From: a virus | Taxonomy: Duplodnaviria; Heunggongvirae; Uroviricota; Caudoviricetes | Virus record (IMG/VR): IMGVR_UViG_648276652_000010 | Location: 1-4,714 of that record | Strand: one strand, 5' to 3' | Length of the DNA: 4,714 bases | Shown: positions 1-4,714 of the stretch, piece after piece | How positions within the stretch are numbered: position 1 is the stretch's first letter | Layout: each line of letters opens with the position of its first letter | Position numbers and translations under genes: made by a program | Notes under the pieces: generated by a model | Told to the model about the DNA's origin: nothing | What the model saw: only the letters and a program-made list of their open reading frames with translations | The model's database searches: none

Positions 1-232
<232 letters not shown>

Positions 233-263
233 CTGTTATTTATGCCAAAAATAAAGGCCACTA

Positions 264-464
264 TCAGGCAGCTTTGTTGTTCTGTTTACCAAGTTCTCTG
301 GCAATCATTGCCGTCGTTCGTATTGCCCATTTATCGACATATTTCCCATCTTCCATTACAGGAAACATTTCTTCAGGCTTAACCATGCATTCCGATTGCA
401 GCTTGCATCCATTGCATCGCTTGAATTGTCCACACCATTGATTTTTATCAATAGTCGTAGTCAT
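264..464 (-). CDS. ral: Ral restriction-alleviation protein (66 aa)
   Basis: ATG at 464 (minus). Product MTTTIDKNQWCGQFKRCNGCKLQSEC... matches my recollection of lambda Ral in sequence and length. It sits in the expected place downstream of N in the PL operon. Confidence 0.75.
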   Translation of the reverse strand: MTTTIDKNQWCGQFKRCNGCKLQSECMVKPEEMFPVMEDGKYVDKWAIRTTAMIARELGKQNNKAA

Positions 465-534
465 ACGGATAGTCCTGGTATTGTTCCATCACATCCTGCG
501 GATGCTCTTCGAACTCTTCAAATTCTTCTTCCAT
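448..534 (-). CDS. orf28-like acidic 28-aa peptide (MEEEFEEFEEHPQDVMEQYQDYPYDYDY)
   Basis: Not in the ORF track (too short). ATG at 534 is preceded by GAGGTG (revcomp of 539..544) at 4-nt spacing. Its stop TGA (448..450) overlaps the ral start by 17 bp, the same arrangement I recall for lambda orf28/ral. Confidence 0.5.
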   Translation of the reverse strand: MEEEFEEFEEHPQDVMEQYQDYPYDYDY

Positions 535-542
535 ACATCACC

Positions 543-707
543 TCAAATAAGTGGTTTGCTGCGAAAATAAATACGCTCCCACCAAGTTCCGTATCTATCT
601 ATCCAGTTACACCAATCATCGACACTCCATTTTGTTGTGTCGCATTTTGGCAATTGACATGAATATCTACCTTCTTTGTAAAGTCGGCGTTTGACTTTCT
701 TGAGCAT
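543..707 (-). CDS. Hypothetical small protein (54 aa; MLKKVKRRLYKEGRYSCQLPKCDTTKWSVDDWCNWIDRYGTWWERIYFRSKPLI)
   Basis: ATG at 705..707 (minus) is preceded by GAGGT at 5-nt spacing. The longer 74-aa track ORF begins with GTG at 767 and has no RBS. The stop overlaps the orf28 RBS. Trp/Cys-rich with no recognisable family. It occupies the interval where lambda has sieB. Confidence 0.35.
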   Translation of the reverse strand: MLKKVKRRLYKEGRYSCQLPKCDTTKWSVDDWCNWIDRYGTWWERIYFRSKPLI

Positions 708-770
708 GACTACCTCAATCGTAATAAGCTGGAATTGATTTTCCGCGTTGTTTCTGGCGACCAACACAAG

Positions 771-1154
771 TCACCTTGCTGTCAGTTGTTTTGATTTCCT
801 GTAGCCTGCCGCGTAAAGAGCTACATTTGGAAGACATACACCAGTTTCTGGTTGCCTATGCCCAAACTCATTCGCGTACACAATGGCCGCTCTCTCCAGA
901 TTGCGTCTGTATTCTTTCTGTTGCCAGATCACGTCCTGTGCCATGAACTTAATTGGCTTAGCGTCTTCTATGCGCTCAGGCGTTTCGTGAGTACCTTTAG
1001 CCTGAATCTGCGCTCTGCTTAGAGTAGGGCGGTGTAATACTTCTGAACTTATTGCTTCTTCGCGGGCCAGTACGCCGTTAGCTAATGCCTTTGCCTTTAA
1101 ACGCTCACGACGACGAGAACGTGAATTGCCTTTGAACTGAGTTCTGCGTGTCAT
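771..1154 (-). CDS. N: N-type transcription antiterminator, P22 gp24-like (127 aa)
   Basis: ATG at 1154 with AGGAGG 6 nt upstream. N-terminal arginine-rich motif NSRSRRRERLKAKALANG. The C-terminus ...LPNVALYAAGYRKSKQLTAR resembles the recalled P22 N terminus (...VALYAAGHRKSKQITAR). Lies directly downstream of PL and nutL. Confidence 0.7.
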   Translation of the reverse strand: MTRRTQFKGNSRSRRRERLKAKALANGVLAREEAISSEVLHRPTLSRAQIQAKGTHETPERIEDAKPIKFMAQDVIWQQKEYRRNLERAAIVYANEFGHRQPETGVCLPNVALYAAGYRKSKQLTAR

Positions 1155-1319
1155 ATAGACCTCCTGATGAACTTTGGTGGTGTGGTAGGTGGGAGACCCA
1201 TTTCGACCTGTTTCGGCCTACTTCAATTCGGCAATAGTCCCGCAGGCCTCGCCGCTTTACGTGCGACATATTCCCGTCCATGAACCCTTCACCACACCCC
1301 AAAGTTCACTTTGGTTATT

Positions 1320-1334
1320 GCGCTTTGTCAGCGC
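1320..1334 (-). promoter_or_regulatory. nutL boxB hairpin (GCGCUGACAAAGCGC, GACAA pentaloop, P22 type)
   Basis: Minus-strand sequence GCGCTGACAAAGCGC forms a 5-bp stem with loop GACAA, in the PL leader about 165 nt upstream of the N start. No canonical boxA (CGCTCTTTA) is visible upstream. Confidence 0.5.
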
Positions 1335-1402
1335 CGTAGATTCATATTCGAATCGTTGTATATTCACCGCCCTGGTGAGTAGTGCGTCCTGCTGATGTGT
1401 TT

Positions 1403-1465
1403 AGTATCACCGCCAGTGGTATTTATGTCAACACCGCCAGAGATAATTTATCACCGCAGATGGTT
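1403..1465 (-). promoter_or_regulatory. PL promoter with operators OL1 (1405..1421), OL2 (1429..1445) and OL3 (1449..1465)
   Basis: The three 17-bp sites tatcaccgccagtggta, caacaccgccagagata and tatcaccgcagatggtt match lambda OL1/OL2/OL3 as I recall them. Minus-strand -35 TTGACA is at 1426..1431 and -10 GATACT at 1403..1408, with a 17-bp spacer. Confidence 0.85.
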
Positions 1466-1610
1466 ATCTGTATGTTTTTATATAGATTTATTTTTTGCAG
1501 GGGTGTGTGGCTTGGGAGGTGATCGAGAGATCTGAATTGCGATGTTTAGTGAGTTGTATCTATTAATTTTCAAATAAATACAATTGGTTATGTGTTTTGG
1601 GGCGAACGTG

Positions 1611-1650
1611 AGGCAAAGAAAACCCGGCGCGGTGGCCGGGTTTATTTATT
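1611..1650. terminator. Intrinsic terminator hairpin, potentially bidirectional; t_imm-like end of the cI operon
   Basis: Stem cccggc (1623..1628) pairs with gccggg (1635..1640) around a 6-nt loop. The minus strand follows it with TTTTCTTTG and the plus strand with TTTATTTATT. It sits immediately 3' of the stop of the last cassette gene and before OL. Confidence 0.5.
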
Positions 1651-2296
1651 GCTTAGGAGCTTGTTGTGATGACGATTGGTTAGTTGGAGCGCTCGTTAAT
1701 GGTTGCTGTGTCGGTACCTGTATTATAATTGGAGCCGGGCTGGTTACTGATGGTGACTTGTCATTGCCGGAGATAATCCAACTTGAGGCTAACATCACGC
1801 CAGACAGAATCACAGTAACTAAAGTCAAGCCAACGGCCATCGCCCACTGAGTCGTTGTAAGTCCCGTTTTCAAACCGCCGATTTCACCTTTAATTTCAGC
1901 AATACCTCTCTCAATAGAAGAAAATTGCTGAGTATAATAGGTTTTAAAGTCAGCTGATTCGCGACGCATTTCCGCAGCAATAGACTCTACCTCTGATTTG
2001 TTTTGTGAAAGCTTTGCGTCAAGTTCTTCTCTGGACATTCCGCTCACGCTTACCTCCAGGGTATCACTCTTCATCGCTACATCTTCCTTACTTGGGCGCA
2101 AACCCGTTTCGTCCATGGCGTATGAAACTCTATTTGATACCTTAGCATCAATACCAATACTTTGGTACTGAGATGGATCCCCATAAGGAGAAACGGTTGT
2201 CGCTGCTAGGGTTGCACTAACTATAATACTTGGAAGAACTGATGATGTTGTTCCTGAGGTAGGTTGAACTGAAGAAACTGGCTTCAGTCTTTCCAT
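1646..2296 (-). CDS. Hypothetical membrane-anchored protein (216 aa): Ser/Thr-rich N-terminal region, central predicted coiled coil, one C-terminal TM helix, Ser/Pro/Gln-rich tail
   Basis: ATG at 2296 overlaps the stop of the upstream gene (ATGGAAAGACTGA), suggesting translational coupling. An alternative internal start at 2072..2074 has a strong AAGGAAG RBS and would give 142 aa. Hydrophobic segment AMAVGLTLVTVILSGVMLASSWII. Stop TAA at 1646..1648 abuts the terminator hairpin. Confidence 0.6.
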   Translation of the reverse strand: MERLKPVSSVQPTSGTTSSVLPSIIVSATLAATTVSPYGDPSQYQSIGIDAKVSNRVSYAMDETGLRPSKEDVAMKSDTLEVSVSGMSREELDAKLSQNKSEVESIAAEMRRESADFKTYYTQQFSSIERGIAEIKGEIGGLKTGLTTTQWAMAVGLTLVTVILSGVMLASSWIISGNDKSPSVTSPAPIIIQVPTQQPLTSAPTNQSSSQQAPKQ

Positions 2297-2550
2297 AGCC
2301 CATTATCCCTGAGAGCTACCTGTAATGATTTTACTAATGCAACAGCTTGATCCGGGCTCATTGAGACTGACATGTTAGGGGTCAACTCAACTTTTACTTG
2401 GAAGCTATTCTTTCCTTGCTCATCAGACTGCATGTGATGCTCAAATTCATGGCGGTAAAAAGTAATGATTGTTTCAGCACGATCAGGCGTAATAAGAACT
2501 GATGTGGCGGTCATGTGCTGAGGTATGATTTTAATAGTGTTATCTGACAT
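2284..2550 (-). CDS. Hypothetical soluble protein (88 aa; MSDNTIKIIPQHMTATSVLITPDRAETIITFYRHEFEHHMQ...)
   Basis: ATG at 2548..2550 (minus) is preceded by AAAGGA at about 6-nt spacing. The track ORF extends to an ATG at 2691 (135 aa), but that start has no Shine-Dalgarno. No recognisable family. The 3' end overlaps the next gene. Confidence 0.5.
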   Translation of the reverse strand: MSDNTIKIIPQHMTATSVLITPDRAETIITFYRHEFEHHMQSDEQGKNSFQVKVELTPNMSVSMSPDQAVALVKSLQVALRDNGLWKD

Positions 2551-2742
2551 AAGTATCCTTTTTGTTTCCTTAGTATTTTTTTGCATTGACATCAGAAATA
2601 GCGAATCCACAAGAGTATGAGTAAAGCTAATCAGTTTAGTGATACGGTGACTATTAAAGTGGTAAACCACATCAAAGCTCGCAGAGTGCATACCAGGCTG
2701 TCACACATGACAAAGTAACGAGGATGCCTGATCTCATAGCGC

Positions 2743-2898
2743 TCAAAGAGACATGCCGATAATGGCATTAACCACGCATGACGCCATAAACACGCCGCCA
2801 ACGATGAAGCTGGCTTGGTTCTTCCTGGTAGCGCCAAGAGTCAACAGAACCACTGAAAGGGCAAAAAAAGGTATCGCGATTATGCTGAACGTGTTCAT
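2743..2898 (-). CDS. Small membrane protein (51 aa; MNTFSIIAIPFFALSVVLLTLGATRKNQASFIVGGVFMASCVVNAIIGMSL), two predicted TM helices
   Basis: Not in the ORF track. ATG at 2896..2898 (minus) with GAGG at 5-nt spacing. Two hydrophobic stretches are separated by a basic loop, RKNQ. First gene after cI on the same strand, 77 bp downstream of the cI stop. Confidence 0.45.
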   Translation of the reverse strand: MNTFSIIAIPFFALSVVLLTLGATRKNQASFIVGGVFMASCVVNAIIGMSL

Positions 2899-2975
2899 GT
2901 TGACCTCAACTTATTTCGATTCTCCATCACCCTTAATCCGCCGCCCCATGTGTTTGTTGTGATTCGTTGCTGGCC

Positions 2976-3692
<717 letters not shown>

Positions 3693-3695
3693 TTA

Positions 3696-3765
3696 AATCT
3701 ATCACCGCAAGGGATAAATATCTAACACCGTGCGTGTTGACTATTTTACCTCTAGCGGTGATAAT
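3696..3765. promoter_or_regulatory. OR3 (3700..3716), OR2 (3723..3739), OR1 (3747..3763) with divergent promoters PRM and PR
   Basis: tatcaccgcaagggata and taacaccgtgcgtgttg match lambda OR3 and OR2. OR1 reads tacctctAgcggtgata, against lambda tacctctGgcggtgata as I recall it. PR -35 ttgact is at 3737..3742 and -10 gataat at 3760..3765. PRM hexamers lie on the minus strand at 3719..3724 and 3696..3701. Confidence 0.9.
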
Positions 3766-3780
3766 GGTTGCATGTACTAA

Positions 3781-3990
<210 letters not shown>

Positions 3991-3997
3991 GTAACAC

Positions 3998-4043
3998 CGC
4001 TATTTTCACAATGGACATTCGTCCTACGTCGCTGACAAAGCGA
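3998..4043 (+). promoter_or_regulatory. nutR: boxA-like cgctattttcaca (3999..4011) and boxB hairpin ucgcuGACAAagcga (4029..4043)
   Basis: The boxB has a 5-bp stem and GACAA loop, the same loop as the nutL boxB. It lies between cro and cII on the PR transcript. The pentamer CTACG precedes both boxB copies. Confidence 0.45.
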
Positions 4044-4128
4044 GTCCCAATATATCTGACCAACTAAGGCCATATGCGTTTCCACGCATACCTTTCAACT
4101 AGCTATTCACTATTGGAAATCATAAGAA

Positions 4129-4425
4129 ATGGAACAAACAAGTTACAGCAAACTATCCCAGCGTGACGTTGATCGCGCAGAAACAGATTTACTCATCAAC
4201 CTGTCAACGCTTACCCAGCGCGGTCTGGCAAAGATGATTGGCTGTCATGAATCGAAGATAAGCAGAACGGACTGGAGATTTATTGCTTCAGTCTTGTGTG
4301 CTTTCGGAATGGCATCAGACATCAGTCCGATTAGTAGAGCTTTTAAGTATGCGCTTGATGGAATCACAAAGAAAAAATCCCCGGTGGCCGCCGGGGACTC
4401 TAAGCAAATTGATATGCAATTCTGA
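4129..4425 (+). CDS. cII: CII-like transcriptional activator (98 aa), divergent from lambda CII except at the C-terminus
   Basis: In the lambda cII position. The HTH-like segment GLAKMIGCHESKISRTDW and the C-terminal ...KKKSPVAAGDSKQIDMQF parallel lambda ...NKKRPAATERSEQIQMEF. The 32-nt spacing to the O start matches lambda. Confidence 0.7.
   Translation: MEQTSYSKLSQRDVDRAETDLLINLSTLTQRGLAKMIGCHESKISRTDWRFIASVLCAFGMASDISPISRAFKYALDGITKKKSPVAAGDSKQIDMQF
4372..4397 (-). terminator. t_oop-like intrinsic terminator embedded in the 3' end of cII
   Basis: Minus strand reads GTCCCCGGCGGCCACCGGGGATTTTTTC: a 7-bp GC stem (4378..4384 with 4391..4397), 6-nt loop and a run of six T. Same position relative to the cII stop as lambda t_oop. 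Confidence 0.6.
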
Positions 4426-4448
4426 GGGAATTACTGGATCAATCAACA
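4372..4448 (-). ncRNA. oop: oop-like antisense RNA (about 77 nt), 5' end inferred by analogy to lambda
   Basis: The 3' end is defined by the terminator above. The 5' end is placed by lambda spacing only. The expected pO -35 would fall inside the IS629-like insertion. Confidence 0.35.
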
Positions 4449-4461
4449 GGAGTCATTATGA
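4446..4461 (+). pseudogene. O: Replication initiator O: RBS and start codon only, interrupted by IS insertion
   Basis: caggagtcattATGA matches the lambda O translation start. From 4459 the sequence is the IS left end rather than O codons. Confidence 0.5.
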
Positions 4462-4714
4462 ACCGCCCCGGGAATCCTGGAGACTAAACTCCCTGAGAAA
4501 GAGGTAAACAGAATGACTAAAAATACTCGTTTTTCCCCCGAAGTCCGTCAGAGGGCGATTCGTATGGTTCTGGAAAGTCAGGGCGAATATGACTCACAGT
4601 GGGCGGCAATTTGTTCCATTGCCCCAAAGATTGGCTGTACACCGGAGACTCTGCGTGTCTGGGTACGCCAGCATGAGCGGGATACCGGAGGCGGTGATGG
4701 CGGGCTCACCACCG
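4459..4714 (+). mobile_element. IS3-family insertion sequence (IS629/IS3411-like), left inverted repeat and 5' part; continues beyond the window
   Basis: TGAACCGCCCCGGGAATCCTGGAGACTAAACT at 4459 matches the IS629 left end as I recall it, followed by orfA with an AGAGG RBS. Confidence 0.8.
4513..4714 (+). CDS. IS3-family transposase OrfA (HTH, InsE-like), 3' partial
   Basis: [67 protein letters not shown]... is the characteristic IS629-type OrfA N-terminus. The frame is open to the window end. Confidence 0.85.

What the first reader, a model, noticed from the sequence alone, without database searches (positions are those of the whole stretch)
1646..2296. Last cassette gene combines low-complexity ends, a coiled coil and a single C-terminal membrane anchor
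The 216-aa product has a Ser/Thr-rich N-terminal third, a charged predicted helical segment (SREELDAKLSQNKSEVESIAAEMRRESADFKTYYTQQFSSIERGIAEIKGEIGGLK), one TM helix and a Ser/Pro/Gln-rich tail. That layout loosely recalls tail-anchored coiled-coil membrane proteins such as the XhlA type, but this is not a homology claim. There are two candidate starts: 2296 (coupled to the upstream stop) and 2074 (strong AAGGAAG RBS).
Basis: inference. Interest (0 to 1): 0.6.

Follow-up and report, generated by a model that had tools for sequence, protein, structure and literature searches.

The report
HK97 gp48: prophage membrane-anchored coiled coil
The ORF is gene 48 of phage HK97, an uncharacterised inner-membrane coiled-coil protein that sits with a small partner gene where phage lambda keeps its rexAB exclusion genes; it probably makes a full-length and a "headless" product and is a plausible but untested phage-exclusion module.

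Summary
Window 1646-2296(-) is a real 216-aa gene, 99.5% identical at DNA level to phage HK97 gene 48. It has a Ser/Thr-rich N-terminal region, a long helix with 3.6-residue hydrophobic periodicity, one TM helix and a Ser/Pro/Gln tail.

It is the last gene of a block (51-aa ORF, gp49, gp48, terminator) that replaces rexA-rexB between cI and the Timm terminator.

The family has 203 representatives at 50% identity, all seen in Enterobacterales and all unnamed. Its members share:
- a variable "head";
- a conserved neck, stalk and TM anchor, remotely like DUF1640/CCDC90-like proteins (sub-threshold);
- a periplasmic P-I-I-I-Q-V-P strand motif;
- a strikingly frequent C-terminal Lys.

A small, fast-evolving partner gene always precedes it, usually abutting or overlapping it (-47 to +39 nt).

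The conserved internal start is GTG 2047 / ATG 2038, with GGAGG upstream. It is present in 90 of 98 representatives and sits exactly at the mosaic boundary. The upstream frame is clearly coding, so two isoforms are likely.

XhlA membership is not supported. The function is unknown. My best inference is a lysogen-expressed exclusion or defence module. I rate it a new variant of a known kind, of moderate interest.

The parts
1646..2296 (-). Full-length gene 48 (216 aa, stop included). It is HK97 gp48 and a member of PHROG 5820.
2048..2296 (-). Variable 'head' region (aa 1-83). It is Ser/Thr-rich and predicted disordered. It is alignable only to the Klebsiella orthologue, which also shares gp49.
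   Evidence: Coding status: 85 stop-free codons in frame against 6 and 6 stops in the other two frames.
2036..2057 (-). Conserved internal initiation site: GGAGG at 2057-2053, a 5-nt spacer, GTG at 2047-2045 (V84) and ATG at 2038-2036 (M87).
   Evidence: SD duplex energy is -10.7 kcal/mol. Only 1.5% of all ATG/GTG sites reach -10 or lower. 90 of 98 relatives have Met here and the other 8 have Val or Ile. DNA similarity to the Yersinia homologues begins at 2038/2033.
1859..2047 (-). Conserved neck and coiled-coil stalk (aa 84-146). The neck motif is x-[IMFV]-[ST]-[RK]-x-E-[LI]. Asn99 sits at a core position.
1769..1849 (-). The T-x-Q-W junction and the single transmembrane helix (aa 150-176).
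1649..1768 (-). Ser/Pro/Gln-rich tail (aa 177-216), inferred to be periplasmic. It holds the P-I-I-I-Q-V-P motif (aa 189-195, nt 1712-1732) and a penultimate Lys.
   Evidence: The topology is an inference.
1620..1643 (.). GC-rich hairpin terminator. It is the counterpart of lambda Timm, starts 2 nt after the gp48 stop and is followed by a U-tract on the minus strand.
   Evidence: The homologous site is annotated Timm in the HK542 record. The flank is 91% identical to lambda.
2284..2550 (-). Partner gene 49 (88 aa). Its stop lies 13 nt inside gene 48. The predicted fold is beta-beta-beta-alpha.
2743..2898 (-). Unannotated 51-aa ORF with two hydrophobic segments and a good SD. It is part of the block that moves between phages with different repressors. 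Whether it belongs to the module is uncertain.
2976..3689 (-). Lambda-type cI repressor, the first gene of the presumed pRM transcript that reads into the cassette.

Best explanation
SHOWN
- The ORF is phage HK97 gene 48.
- It is the distal gene of a block made of a 51-aa ORF, gp49, gp48 and a terminator. This block lies directly downstream of cI, where lambda has rexA-rexB.
- gp48 is built from two evolutionary modules joined at aa 84-87:
  - A fast-evolving head. It changes together with the abutting or overlapping upstream partner gene.
  - A conserved neck, coiled-coil stalk, single TM helix and short Pro/Gln tail. The tail carries a P-[IV]-[IV]-I-Q-V-P strand motif and a terminal or penultimate Lys.

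INFERRED
- The cassette is transcribed from pRM in the lysogen.
- The protein sits in the inner membrane with head and stalk in the cytoplasm and the tail in the periplasm.
- The stalk oligomerises, probably as a trimer like DUF1640/CCDC90-like proteins.
- Two products are made:
  - Full-length gp48, from ATG 2296, coupled to gp49 translation.
  - A headless product of about 130-133 aa, from the conserved internal GGAGG-GTG 2047 / ATG 2038 site.

PROPOSED MECHANISM (least certain)
- The pair is a prophage accessory exclusion or defence module, analogous in role to RexA/RexB.
- The variable head plus gp49 would provide recognition or regulation.
- The conserved stalk-anchor-tail would act on a conserved host envelope component or on membrane integrity.
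- The ratio of headed to headless subunits would set activity.
For: Identity and slot:
- 99.5% identity to HK97 over 1601 nt; genes annotated 48 and 49 between cI and N.
- The flank from oL to the terminator is 91% identical to lambda at the end of rexB.
- pL, pR and the terminator were located.
- The HK542 record annotates pRM and Timm around an equivalent gene pair.

Context in independent lineages:
- The order repressor, small ORF, gp48-like gene holds in Yersinia (three prophage lineages), Kosakonia, Buttiauxella, Sodalis, Klebsiella, one viral contig (L031), one metagenome contig (L042) and HK542.
- In Xenorhabdus and one viral contig the pair instead lies beside an arc/mnt-ant region.

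Architecture:
-.

Link to DUF1640:
- PF07798 is hit by 32 of 98 relatives, best E 2e-8.
- The matches always run colinearly from the neck to the TM end, model positions 75-172 of 175.
- The beta-layer motif is described at the start of the DUF1640 stalk (PMC4786415).

Internal start:
- Met lies 4-9 residues before the invariant Glu in 90 of 98 relatives. Background Met frequency is 1.4%.
- SD duplex energy is -5.4 to -12.2 kcal/mol in 12 of 12 loci. In 6 of them it is -10 or lower, against 1.5% of all ATG/GTG sites.
- Some relatives are encoded only as the short form and begin exactly at this Met.

Long form is real:
- 39-116 stop-free codons upstream in frame, against 2-17 stops in the other frames, in 10 loci.
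- The heads of HK97 and Klebsiella align.

Modularity:
- Partner and head similarity co-occur in 4 pairs, and by eye in a fifth (HK542 with L031). Cores are similar in all 66 pairs.
- The DNA similarity breakpoint lies at 2038/2033.

Tail:
- 84 of 155 representatives end in Lys, and 116 of 157 have Lys in the last three residues. Lys makes up 6% of tail residues.
Against: - No experiment or publication on gp48 or gp49 was found.
- No match to any PADLOC defence model for gp48, and only noise for gp49. No NCBIfam or Pfam family is above threshold.
- The defence role rests on position and analogy only.
- The AF2 monomer is low-confidence (pLDDT 46.7). Oligomeric state and the beta-layer were not modelled.
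- Co-inheritance of partner and head could simply reflect their adjacency on the DNA.
- The conserved Met could partly be a structural hydrophobic position. Acidic and Gly codons before it could reflect a linker rather than an SD.
- Local RNA structure around the internal SD is not significant (z = -1.0).
- Topology is inferred only from the lack of a signal peptide and a weak positive-inside bias (1.8 versus 1.15 K+R).
Confidence: 0.45

Rival explanations
1. There is a single product. Only ATG 2296 is used. The conserved Met/Val at aa 84-87 is a structural residue of the neck, and the purine-rich codons before it encode an acidic/Gly linker.
For: - The upstream frame is clearly coding.
- Column 87 is a mixed hydrophobic position (I, M, F, V), and the neck motif needs a hydrophobic residue.
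- The long start is coupled to gp49.
Against: - Column 84 is Met in 65 of 96 sequences, with no Leu or Phe. That is atypical for a purely structural hydrophobic position.
- SD energies are far stronger than background in every locus examined.
- Stand-alone short genes start exactly there.
Confidence: 0.3
2. Only the short protein is real. The gene starts at 2047/2038, or at the reader's 2074, and the 5' extension is untranslated leader.
For: - The internal site has the strongest SD.
- Some database entries are called short (P0005, P0009, P0014, P0019).
Against: - There are 85 stop-free codons in frame against 6 and 6 stops in the other two frames. The same pattern holds in 10 loci.
- The head aligns at protein level between HK97 and Klebsiella.
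- ATG 2074 is not conserved.
Confidence: 0.05
3. The module is a lysogenic-conversion factor that tunes a host envelope or membrane function. For example, it could scaffold or inhibit a host inner-membrane complex, as MCUR1 does for MCU. On this reading it does not act against phages.
For: - The most conserved parts are the stalk, the anchor and the periplasmic motif, which suggests a conserved host partner.
- It resembles the DUF1640/CCDC90 scaffold proteins.
- There is no PADLOC hit.
Against: - The slot (downstream of cI, or beside arc/ant) is classically occupied by exclusion genes such as rexAB and sieA. This rests on established knowledge and on PMC2629481, PMC12315714 and PMC10883804.
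- A rapidly diversifying head and partner fits an arms race better than a housekeeping interaction.
Confidence: 0.2
4. It is a toxin-antitoxin or holin-like pair. gp48 oligomers would permeabilise the inner membrane. gp49 would be the cognate inhibitor that binds the head. The pair would stabilise the prophage or act as an abortive-infection switch.
For: - The arrangement is a small soluble protein gene overlapping the start of a single-TM oligomerising protein gene by 13 nt.
- The TM helix has a Thr/Ser/Gly stripe (T158, S165, S172).
- An in-frame headless isoform recalls holin/antiholin and SieB/Esc. That comparison is from my own knowledge.
Against: - No similarity to known holins or toxins.
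- The TM sequence is not conserved across the wider family.
- The conserved periplasmic motif is unexplained by this model.
Confidence: 0.15
5. It is an XhlA-type haemolysin or lysis accessory protein.
For: Only the superficial layout of a coiled coil followed by a C-terminal TM.
Against: - No XhlA hit for gp48, and XhlA is not among the 25 families that most of the 98 relatives match.
- The gene lies in the immunity operon, not in a lysis cassette.
- A 40-aa conserved tail follows the TM.
Confidence: 0.02

Closest known systems
DUF1640 / CCDC90-like (Pfam PF07798; MCUR1, CCDC90B and prokaryotic homologues): membrane-anchored coiled coils with head, neck, stalk and anchor
   Same: - Both have an N-terminal head of variable type, a neck motif at the start of the stalk ([hydrophobic]-[ST]-[KR]-x-[DE]-[LI]), a long coiled-coil stalk and a single C-terminal TM.
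- Sub-threshold matches are colinear from the neck to the TM end in a third of the relatives.
- The motif is described in PMC4786415.
   Different: - gp48 scores 12.6 bits against a cut-off of 33.5.
- There is no CCDC90-type head.
- gp48 has an extra roughly 40-aa Pro/Gln tail with a strand motif and terminal Lys.
- It has an obligate upstream partner gene, a conserved internal start and a prophage immunity-operon location.
Lambda RexA/RexB
   Same: - The genomic slot is identical: between cI and the Timm terminator, on the cI strand.
- The cassette includes a soluble protein and a membrane protein.
- Transcription in the lysogen is presumed.
   Different: - There is no sequence or family match.
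- RexB has four TM segments (from knowledge) against one here.
- gp49 (88 aa, beta-beta-beta-alpha) is unlike RexA.
- The function of gp48/gp49 is untested.
P22/lambda SieB-Esc and lambda S107/S105 (in-frame internal starts that give antagonistic isoforms)
   Same: Phage membrane-associated proteins in which a second in-frame start yields an N-terminally shorter product. This precedent is from my own knowledge (Ranade and Poteete 1993; Blasi and Young).
   Different: - No homology: there is no SieB or holin match for gp48, and neither is among the 25 families most matched by its relatives.
- Use of the internal start in gp48 is inferred, not shown.
Inner-membrane superinfection-exclusion proteins (HK97 gp15, P22 SieA, T4 Imm)
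   Same: Small prophage- or phage-encoded inner-membrane proteins, expressed in the lysogen, that block DNA entry (PMC3594210, PMC10883804). In Xenorhabdus the gp48-like pair lies beside arc/ant, where P22 has sieA.
   Different: There is no sequence similarity. SieA has three predicted TM segments. None of these proteins has a coiled-coil stalk or a partner gene.
XhlA
   Same: A short coiled coil followed by a C-terminal TM.
   Different: There is no family match for gp48, and XhlA is not among the 25 families most matched by its relatives. XhlA belongs to a lysis cassette. gp48 has a head and a periplasmic tail.

Membership tests
PHROG 5820 (unknown function) | Significant match to the family profile over most of its length. 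| tested here: met
   E 9.6e-69; aa 20-210 against profile positions 2-198 of 200.
HK97 gp48 orthologue group | Near-identical sequence in the same position, between cI and N/pL. | tested here: met
   99.5% DNA identity to AF069529 26662-28263, where the CDS is annotated gene 48.
CCDC90-like / DUF1640 (PF07798) | Score at or above the Pfam gathering cut-off of 33.5 bits. | tested here: not met
   gp48 scores 12.6 bits, E 0.12. 32 of 98 relatives match at E <= 0.01, best 2e-8. The ten relatives scanned individually gave at most 23.5 bits.
CCDC90-like / DUF1640 (PF07798) | Beta-layer neck motif at the start of the stalk, then a coiled coil, then a C-terminal TM. | tested here: inconclusive
   The family motif x-[IMFV]-[ST]-[RK]-x-E-[LI] fits the published pattern. 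The stalk has 3.6-residue periodicity and a TM follows. This is a pattern match only; no multimer model was made.
CCDC90-like / DUF1640 (PF07798) | Trimeric assembly. | not testable with these tools
   Only monomer AF2 was available. A conserved Asn at a core position (82 of 98) is suggestive, from knowledge of N@d layers.
XhlA (Pfam PF10779) | Match to the XhlA profile. | tested here: not met
   No hit at E <= 1 for gp48. XhlA is not among the 25 families shown (of 46 matched) for the 98 relatives.
Lambda RexA/RexB | Sequence or family match to RexA or RexB, and a four-TM RexB-like channel. | tested here: not met
   No such Pfam, NCBIfam or PADLOC hits for gp48, gp49 or the 51-aa ORF. gp48 has one TM.
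Lambda RexA/RexB | Location downstream of cI, upstream of Timm, on the same strand. | tested here: met
Known anti-phage defence systems (PADLOC-DB v2.0.0) | Significant match to a defence-protein model. | tested here: not met
   gp48 and the 51-aa ORF give none. gp49 gives only PDC-S52 at E 0.0095, 13.7 bits.
Dual-start (isoform-producing) phage membrane genes | Conserved in-frame internal start codon with its own SD, and a translated upstream extension. | tested here: met
   Actual use of the internal start is not testable here.

The most novel reading that the evidence does not exclude
The 49-48 pair, possibly with the 51-aa ORF, is a previously unrecognised prophage defence system. Its effector would be a trimeric inner-membrane coiled coil tethered through its conserved periplasmic strand motif and C-terminal Lys to a host envelope component. 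The tether could even be covalent to peptidoglycan, as for Lpp's terminal Lys, or the motif could mimic a TonB-box-like strand. Activity would be switched by the ratio of headed to headless isoforms and by gp49 binding to the hypervariable head.
Probability: 0.1. Interest if true: 0.8.

Novelty: new variant of a known kind. Interest (0 to 1): 0.45.

Why it matters
HK97 is a model phage, and the slot downstream of cI is the textbook home of the Rex exclusion system. Even so, genes 48 and 49 have stayed "hypothetical" since 2000.

This analysis turns gp48 into a testable object:
- a defined family of about 200 clusters in Enterobacterales prophages;
- a modular head/partner unit joined to a neck-stalk-anchor-tail architecture;
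- a likely two-isoform gene;
- a conserved periplasmic motif and terminal Lys that point to a specific host contact.

If the pair proves to be an exclusion system, it would add a new effector type, a membrane-anchored coiled coil, to prophage defences. It would also give a bacterial function to the poorly understood DUF1640/CCDC90-like architecture. If it does nothing against phages, it is still a clean example of mosaic recombination at a domain boundary inside a gene.

Tried and rejected
- **Family scans.** Pfam, NCBIfam and PADLOC scans of gp48, gp49 and the 51-aa ORF gave nothing above threshold.
- **Solved structures.** A family profile searched against PDB sequences found only generic coiled coils, best E 0.0018 to a phage short tail fibre.
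- **gp48 model.** The AF2 monomer was too poor (pLDDT 46.7) for a fold search.
- **Locus search.** The search for related loci with the 98-sequence alignment failed for lack of conserved stretches. It worked with the 11-sequence alignment.
- **Partner homology.** Direct BLASTP between gp49 and the partner ORFs of other loci found nothing. phmmer gave only weak chains.
- **Literature.** Searches for HK97 gp48/gp49, accession numbers, the PHROG id and rex-slot hotspots found no functional data. Degnan et al. 2007 is not held.
- **RNA.** Rfam found no RNA family in the window. A hairpin around the internal SD is not significant (z = -1.0).
- **N-terminal patch.** I considered aa 17-37 as a second TM and rejected it (Hessa sum +4.8).
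ATG 2074 was rejected as the main alternative start.
Full report
**What the window is.**
The 4714-bp window is a lambdoid immunity region. Its features are:

| Feature | Coordinates |
|---|---|
| N-like antiterminator | 771-1154(-) |
| pL/oL | about 1403-1460 |
| GC-rich hairpin terminator | 1620-1643 |
| Finding ORF | 1646-2296(-) |
| Small gene | 2284-2550(-) |
| 51-aa ORF | 2743-2898(-) |
| Lambda-type cI | 2976-3689(-) |
| pR and cro | 3790-3990(+) |
| cII | 4129-4425(+) |

- Segment 1400-3000 is 99.5% identical to phage HK97. There the two genes are annotated 48 and 49 and lie between cI and N.
- The stretch from oL to the terminator is 91% identical to lambda at the end of rexB. Genes 49-48 therefore occupy exactly the rexA-rexB slot.
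- The block from about 1612 to 2975 is also present at 99.8% identity in HK225, which has a different repressor. It therefore moves as a cassette.
- 51 complete E. coli genomes carry it.
- The prophage fragment in this window (230-4461) is flanked by IS remnants.

**Checking the observation.**
- The ORF, its length and its composition are as described.
- There is one convincing TM segment at aa 150-176. The Kyte-Doolittle maximum is 2.25 and the Hessa sum is -0.55. The N-terminal hydrophobic patch at aa 17-35 is not a TM (+4.8).
- The AF2 monomer gives helices 89-136 and 145-172 with the rest disordered, at low confidence.
- In an alignment of 98 family representatives, hydrophobic columns between aa 88 and 146 recur every 3.6 residues. 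None of 2000 permutations matched this. The pattern is a coiled coil with hendecad-like insertions that runs straight into the membrane helix.

**The family.**
- gp48 matches PHROG 5820 (unknown function, E 9.6e-69). It matches no Pfam, NCBIfam or PADLOC family above threshold.
- A word-based search found 11 relatives. A full HMM search found 203 cluster representatives, 105 of them at E <= 1e-10.
- All named members are 'hypothetical protein', from Escherichia, Citrobacter, Klebsiella, Yersinia, Serratia, Providencia, Morganella, Xenorhabdus and Kosakonia.
- The alignments show the following:
  - an unalignable N-terminal region of 40-110 residues;
  - a strongly conserved block, M-x-x-[IMFV]-[ST]-[RK]-x-E-L-D-A-K-L-x-x-N-K-A-E-V...;
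  - a near-invariant T-x-Q-W;
  - the TM helix;
  - a Pro/Gln-rich tail of median 35 residues that contains P-[IV]-[IV]-I-Q-V-P.
- 84 of 155 representatives end in Lys, and 116 of 157 have Lys in the last three positions. Lys makes up only 6% of tail residues. HK97 gp48 ends ...APKQ.
- The tail is unalignable at DNA level between lineages, yet it keeps the motif.

**Relation to known families.**
- When 98 relatives are scanned individually, 32 hit CCDC90-like/DUF1640 (PF07798; best E 2e-8). 35 hit another coiled-coil family, Baculo_PEP_C.
- The PF07798 matches are sub-threshold (18-24 bits in the ten I examined, against a cut-off of 33.5). They are always colinear, running from the conserved Ser-Arg-x-Glu-Leu block to the end of the TM (model positions 75-172 of 175).
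- Hartmann et al. [quoted passage not shown] They list coil-to-coiled-coil variants such as FVTKTEF and TVTKAEA. The gp48 family motif fits that pattern.
- I therefore treat gp48 as a remote relative or analogue of the head-neck-stalk-anchor class, not as a member. The defining score is not met, and the trimer and beta-layer could not be modelled.

**A partner gene.**
- In every locus I could read, a small ORF of 84-147 aa with no TM lies immediately upstream. It usually overlaps or abuts the gp48-like start. Spacing ranges from a 47-nt overlap to a 39-nt gap, and in HK97 the overlap is 13 nt.
- The pair sits directly after a cI-type repressor in Yersinia (three prophage lineages), Kosakonia, Buttiauxella, Sodalis, Klebsiella, one viral contig (L031), one metagenome contig (L042), and in HK542/HK244. 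The HK542 depositors annotated pRM upstream and Timm downstream.
- In Xenorhabdus and one viral contig the pair lies next to an arc/mnt-ant region instead. That is another place where prophage-expressed genes such as P22 sieA sit (knowledge).
- The partners are extremely divergent. gp49 has only four close relatives, and phmmer links between partner types are weak.
- The gp49 model is a three-stranded sheet plus a C-terminal helix (pLDDT 72). It has no confident structural neighbour.

**Mosaic structure.**
- Head similarity appears only in the four pairs whose partner genes are clearly homologous. HK542 with L031 adds a fifth pair by eye.
- HK97 gp48 shares its partner and head with a Klebsiella prophage. 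The partner is 66% identical, the head alignable and the core only about 34% identical.
- It shares its core, but not head or partner, with Yersinia prophages. At DNA level, similarity to the Yersinia genes starts at window 2038/2033 and ends near 1751-1770. Similarity to the Klebsiella locus is confined to gp49 (2517-2288).
- The recombination joint is therefore at aa 84-87.
- Adjacency on the DNA could explain head-partner co-inheritance on its own. A functional head-gp49 interaction is an inference.

**The start-codon question.**
- The joint coincides with a conserved start signal.
  - 90 of 98 representatives have Met 4-9 residues before the invariant Glu. Background Met frequency in the heads is 1.4%. 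The other eight have Val or Ile.
  - In 12 loci with DNA, this ATG or GTG is preceded by an SD with duplex energy -5.4 to -12.2 kcal/mol. Six are -10 or lower. Only 1.5% of all ATG/GTG sites in the same DNA reach -10, and 17.6% reach -5.4.
  - In the window the site is GGAGG (2057-2053), TAAGC, GTG 2047, with ATG 2038 nine bases further on. The Klebsiella orthologue keeps GGAGG-N5-GTG.
- Some relatives are encoded only as the short form and begin exactly at this Met.
- The region upstream is nevertheless coding. There are 39-116 stop-free codons in frame against 2-17 stops in the other two frames, in ten loci.
- Both a long product (ATG 2296, coupled to gp49) and a headless product are therefore likely. 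Actual use of the internal start is inferred.

**Mechanism.**
- Shown: the identity, slot, architecture, partner, mosaic joint and conserved internal RBS.
- Inferred:
  - expression in the lysogen from pRM, by analogy with cI-rexA-rexB and with the HK542 annotation;
  - N-in/C-out topology, from the absence of a signal peptide and a weak positive-inside bias;
  - oligomerisation.
- My best proposal is an accessory exclusion or defence module.
  - The hypervariable head plus gp49 would act as the recognition or regulatory part.
  - The conserved stalk-anchor-tail would be the effector, or would contact a conserved host envelope component.
  - The two isoforms would tune activity.
- The functional part rests only on position, on diversification pattern and on analogy. 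No defence-model match and no literature support it. I put the whole statement at 0.45.
- Alternatives are a host-physiology conversion factor, a toxin/antitoxin-like pair, and a single-product gene.

**Novelty and verdict.**
- The ORF itself has been known as HK97 gp48 since the genome was deposited. In that sense the finding is an already catalogued hypothetical gene.
- I found no earlier description of these points:
  - the family-wide architecture;
  - the remote DUF1640-type relationship;
  - the obligate partner;
  - the intragenic mosaic joint;
  - the conserved internal start;
  - the periplasmic strand motif with terminal Lys.
- I class it as a new variant of a known kind, with moderate interest (0.45).
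- The most novel reading still open is a new defence system with an envelope-tethered coiled-coil effector switched by isoforms. I give it about 10% probability.

Noticed in passing
window 2743-2898 (-): An unannotated 51-aa ORF with two hydrophobic segments and GAGG 5 nt before its ATG lies between cI and gene 49. It is 100% conserved in HK97, HK225 and PDP110P1 but is not called in the HK97 or RefSeq records. It may be a third cassette gene.
   Followed up: partly
window 1-163 and about 4513-4714: The prophage fragment is bounded by IS remnants: the 3' end of an IS21-type istB and the start of an IS3-family (IS1203/IS629-like) orfA. Only 230-4461 matches prophages in complete E. coli genomes, so this copy looks like a cryptic, IS-truncated immunity region that still keeps the cassette intact.
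   Followed up: partly
L044 (EF120458, phage HK542) 1450-2501: HK542 and HK244 have lambda immunity. They carry a distant gp48-like gene (206 aa) and a 144-aa partner that overlaps it by 4 nt, in the same slot between cI and the annotated Timm. The gp48-like gene has an internal GTG with an SD of -9.5 kcal/mol.
   Followed up: yes
family-wide; window 1649-1654 (Lys215-Gln216): The C-terminal residue is Lys in 84 of 155 family representatives, although Lys is 6% of tail residues. I have no explanation. Possibilities include a peptidoglycan or partner attachment signal.
   Followed up: partly
L038 4934-5143, L042 3078-3287, L002 (HK225) 2303-2509: A small DUF2767-family gene lies convergent to the gp48-like gene in the two prophage loci. 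HK225 has a 68-aa convergent ORF in the same place, which I did not scan against Pfam. The gene is absent from this window and from HK97.
   Followed up: no
L004 3746-4691: In the Yersinia intermedia prophage, two extra predicted membrane proteins (132 and 135 aa) lie between the repressor and the partner/gp48-like pair. This is where HK97 has the 51-aa ORF.
   Followed up: no
window 264-464 (-): A 66-aa ORF lies downstream of N in the leftward operon. The corresponding gene in E. coli genome records is annotated as an antirestriction Ral family protein.
   Followed up: no
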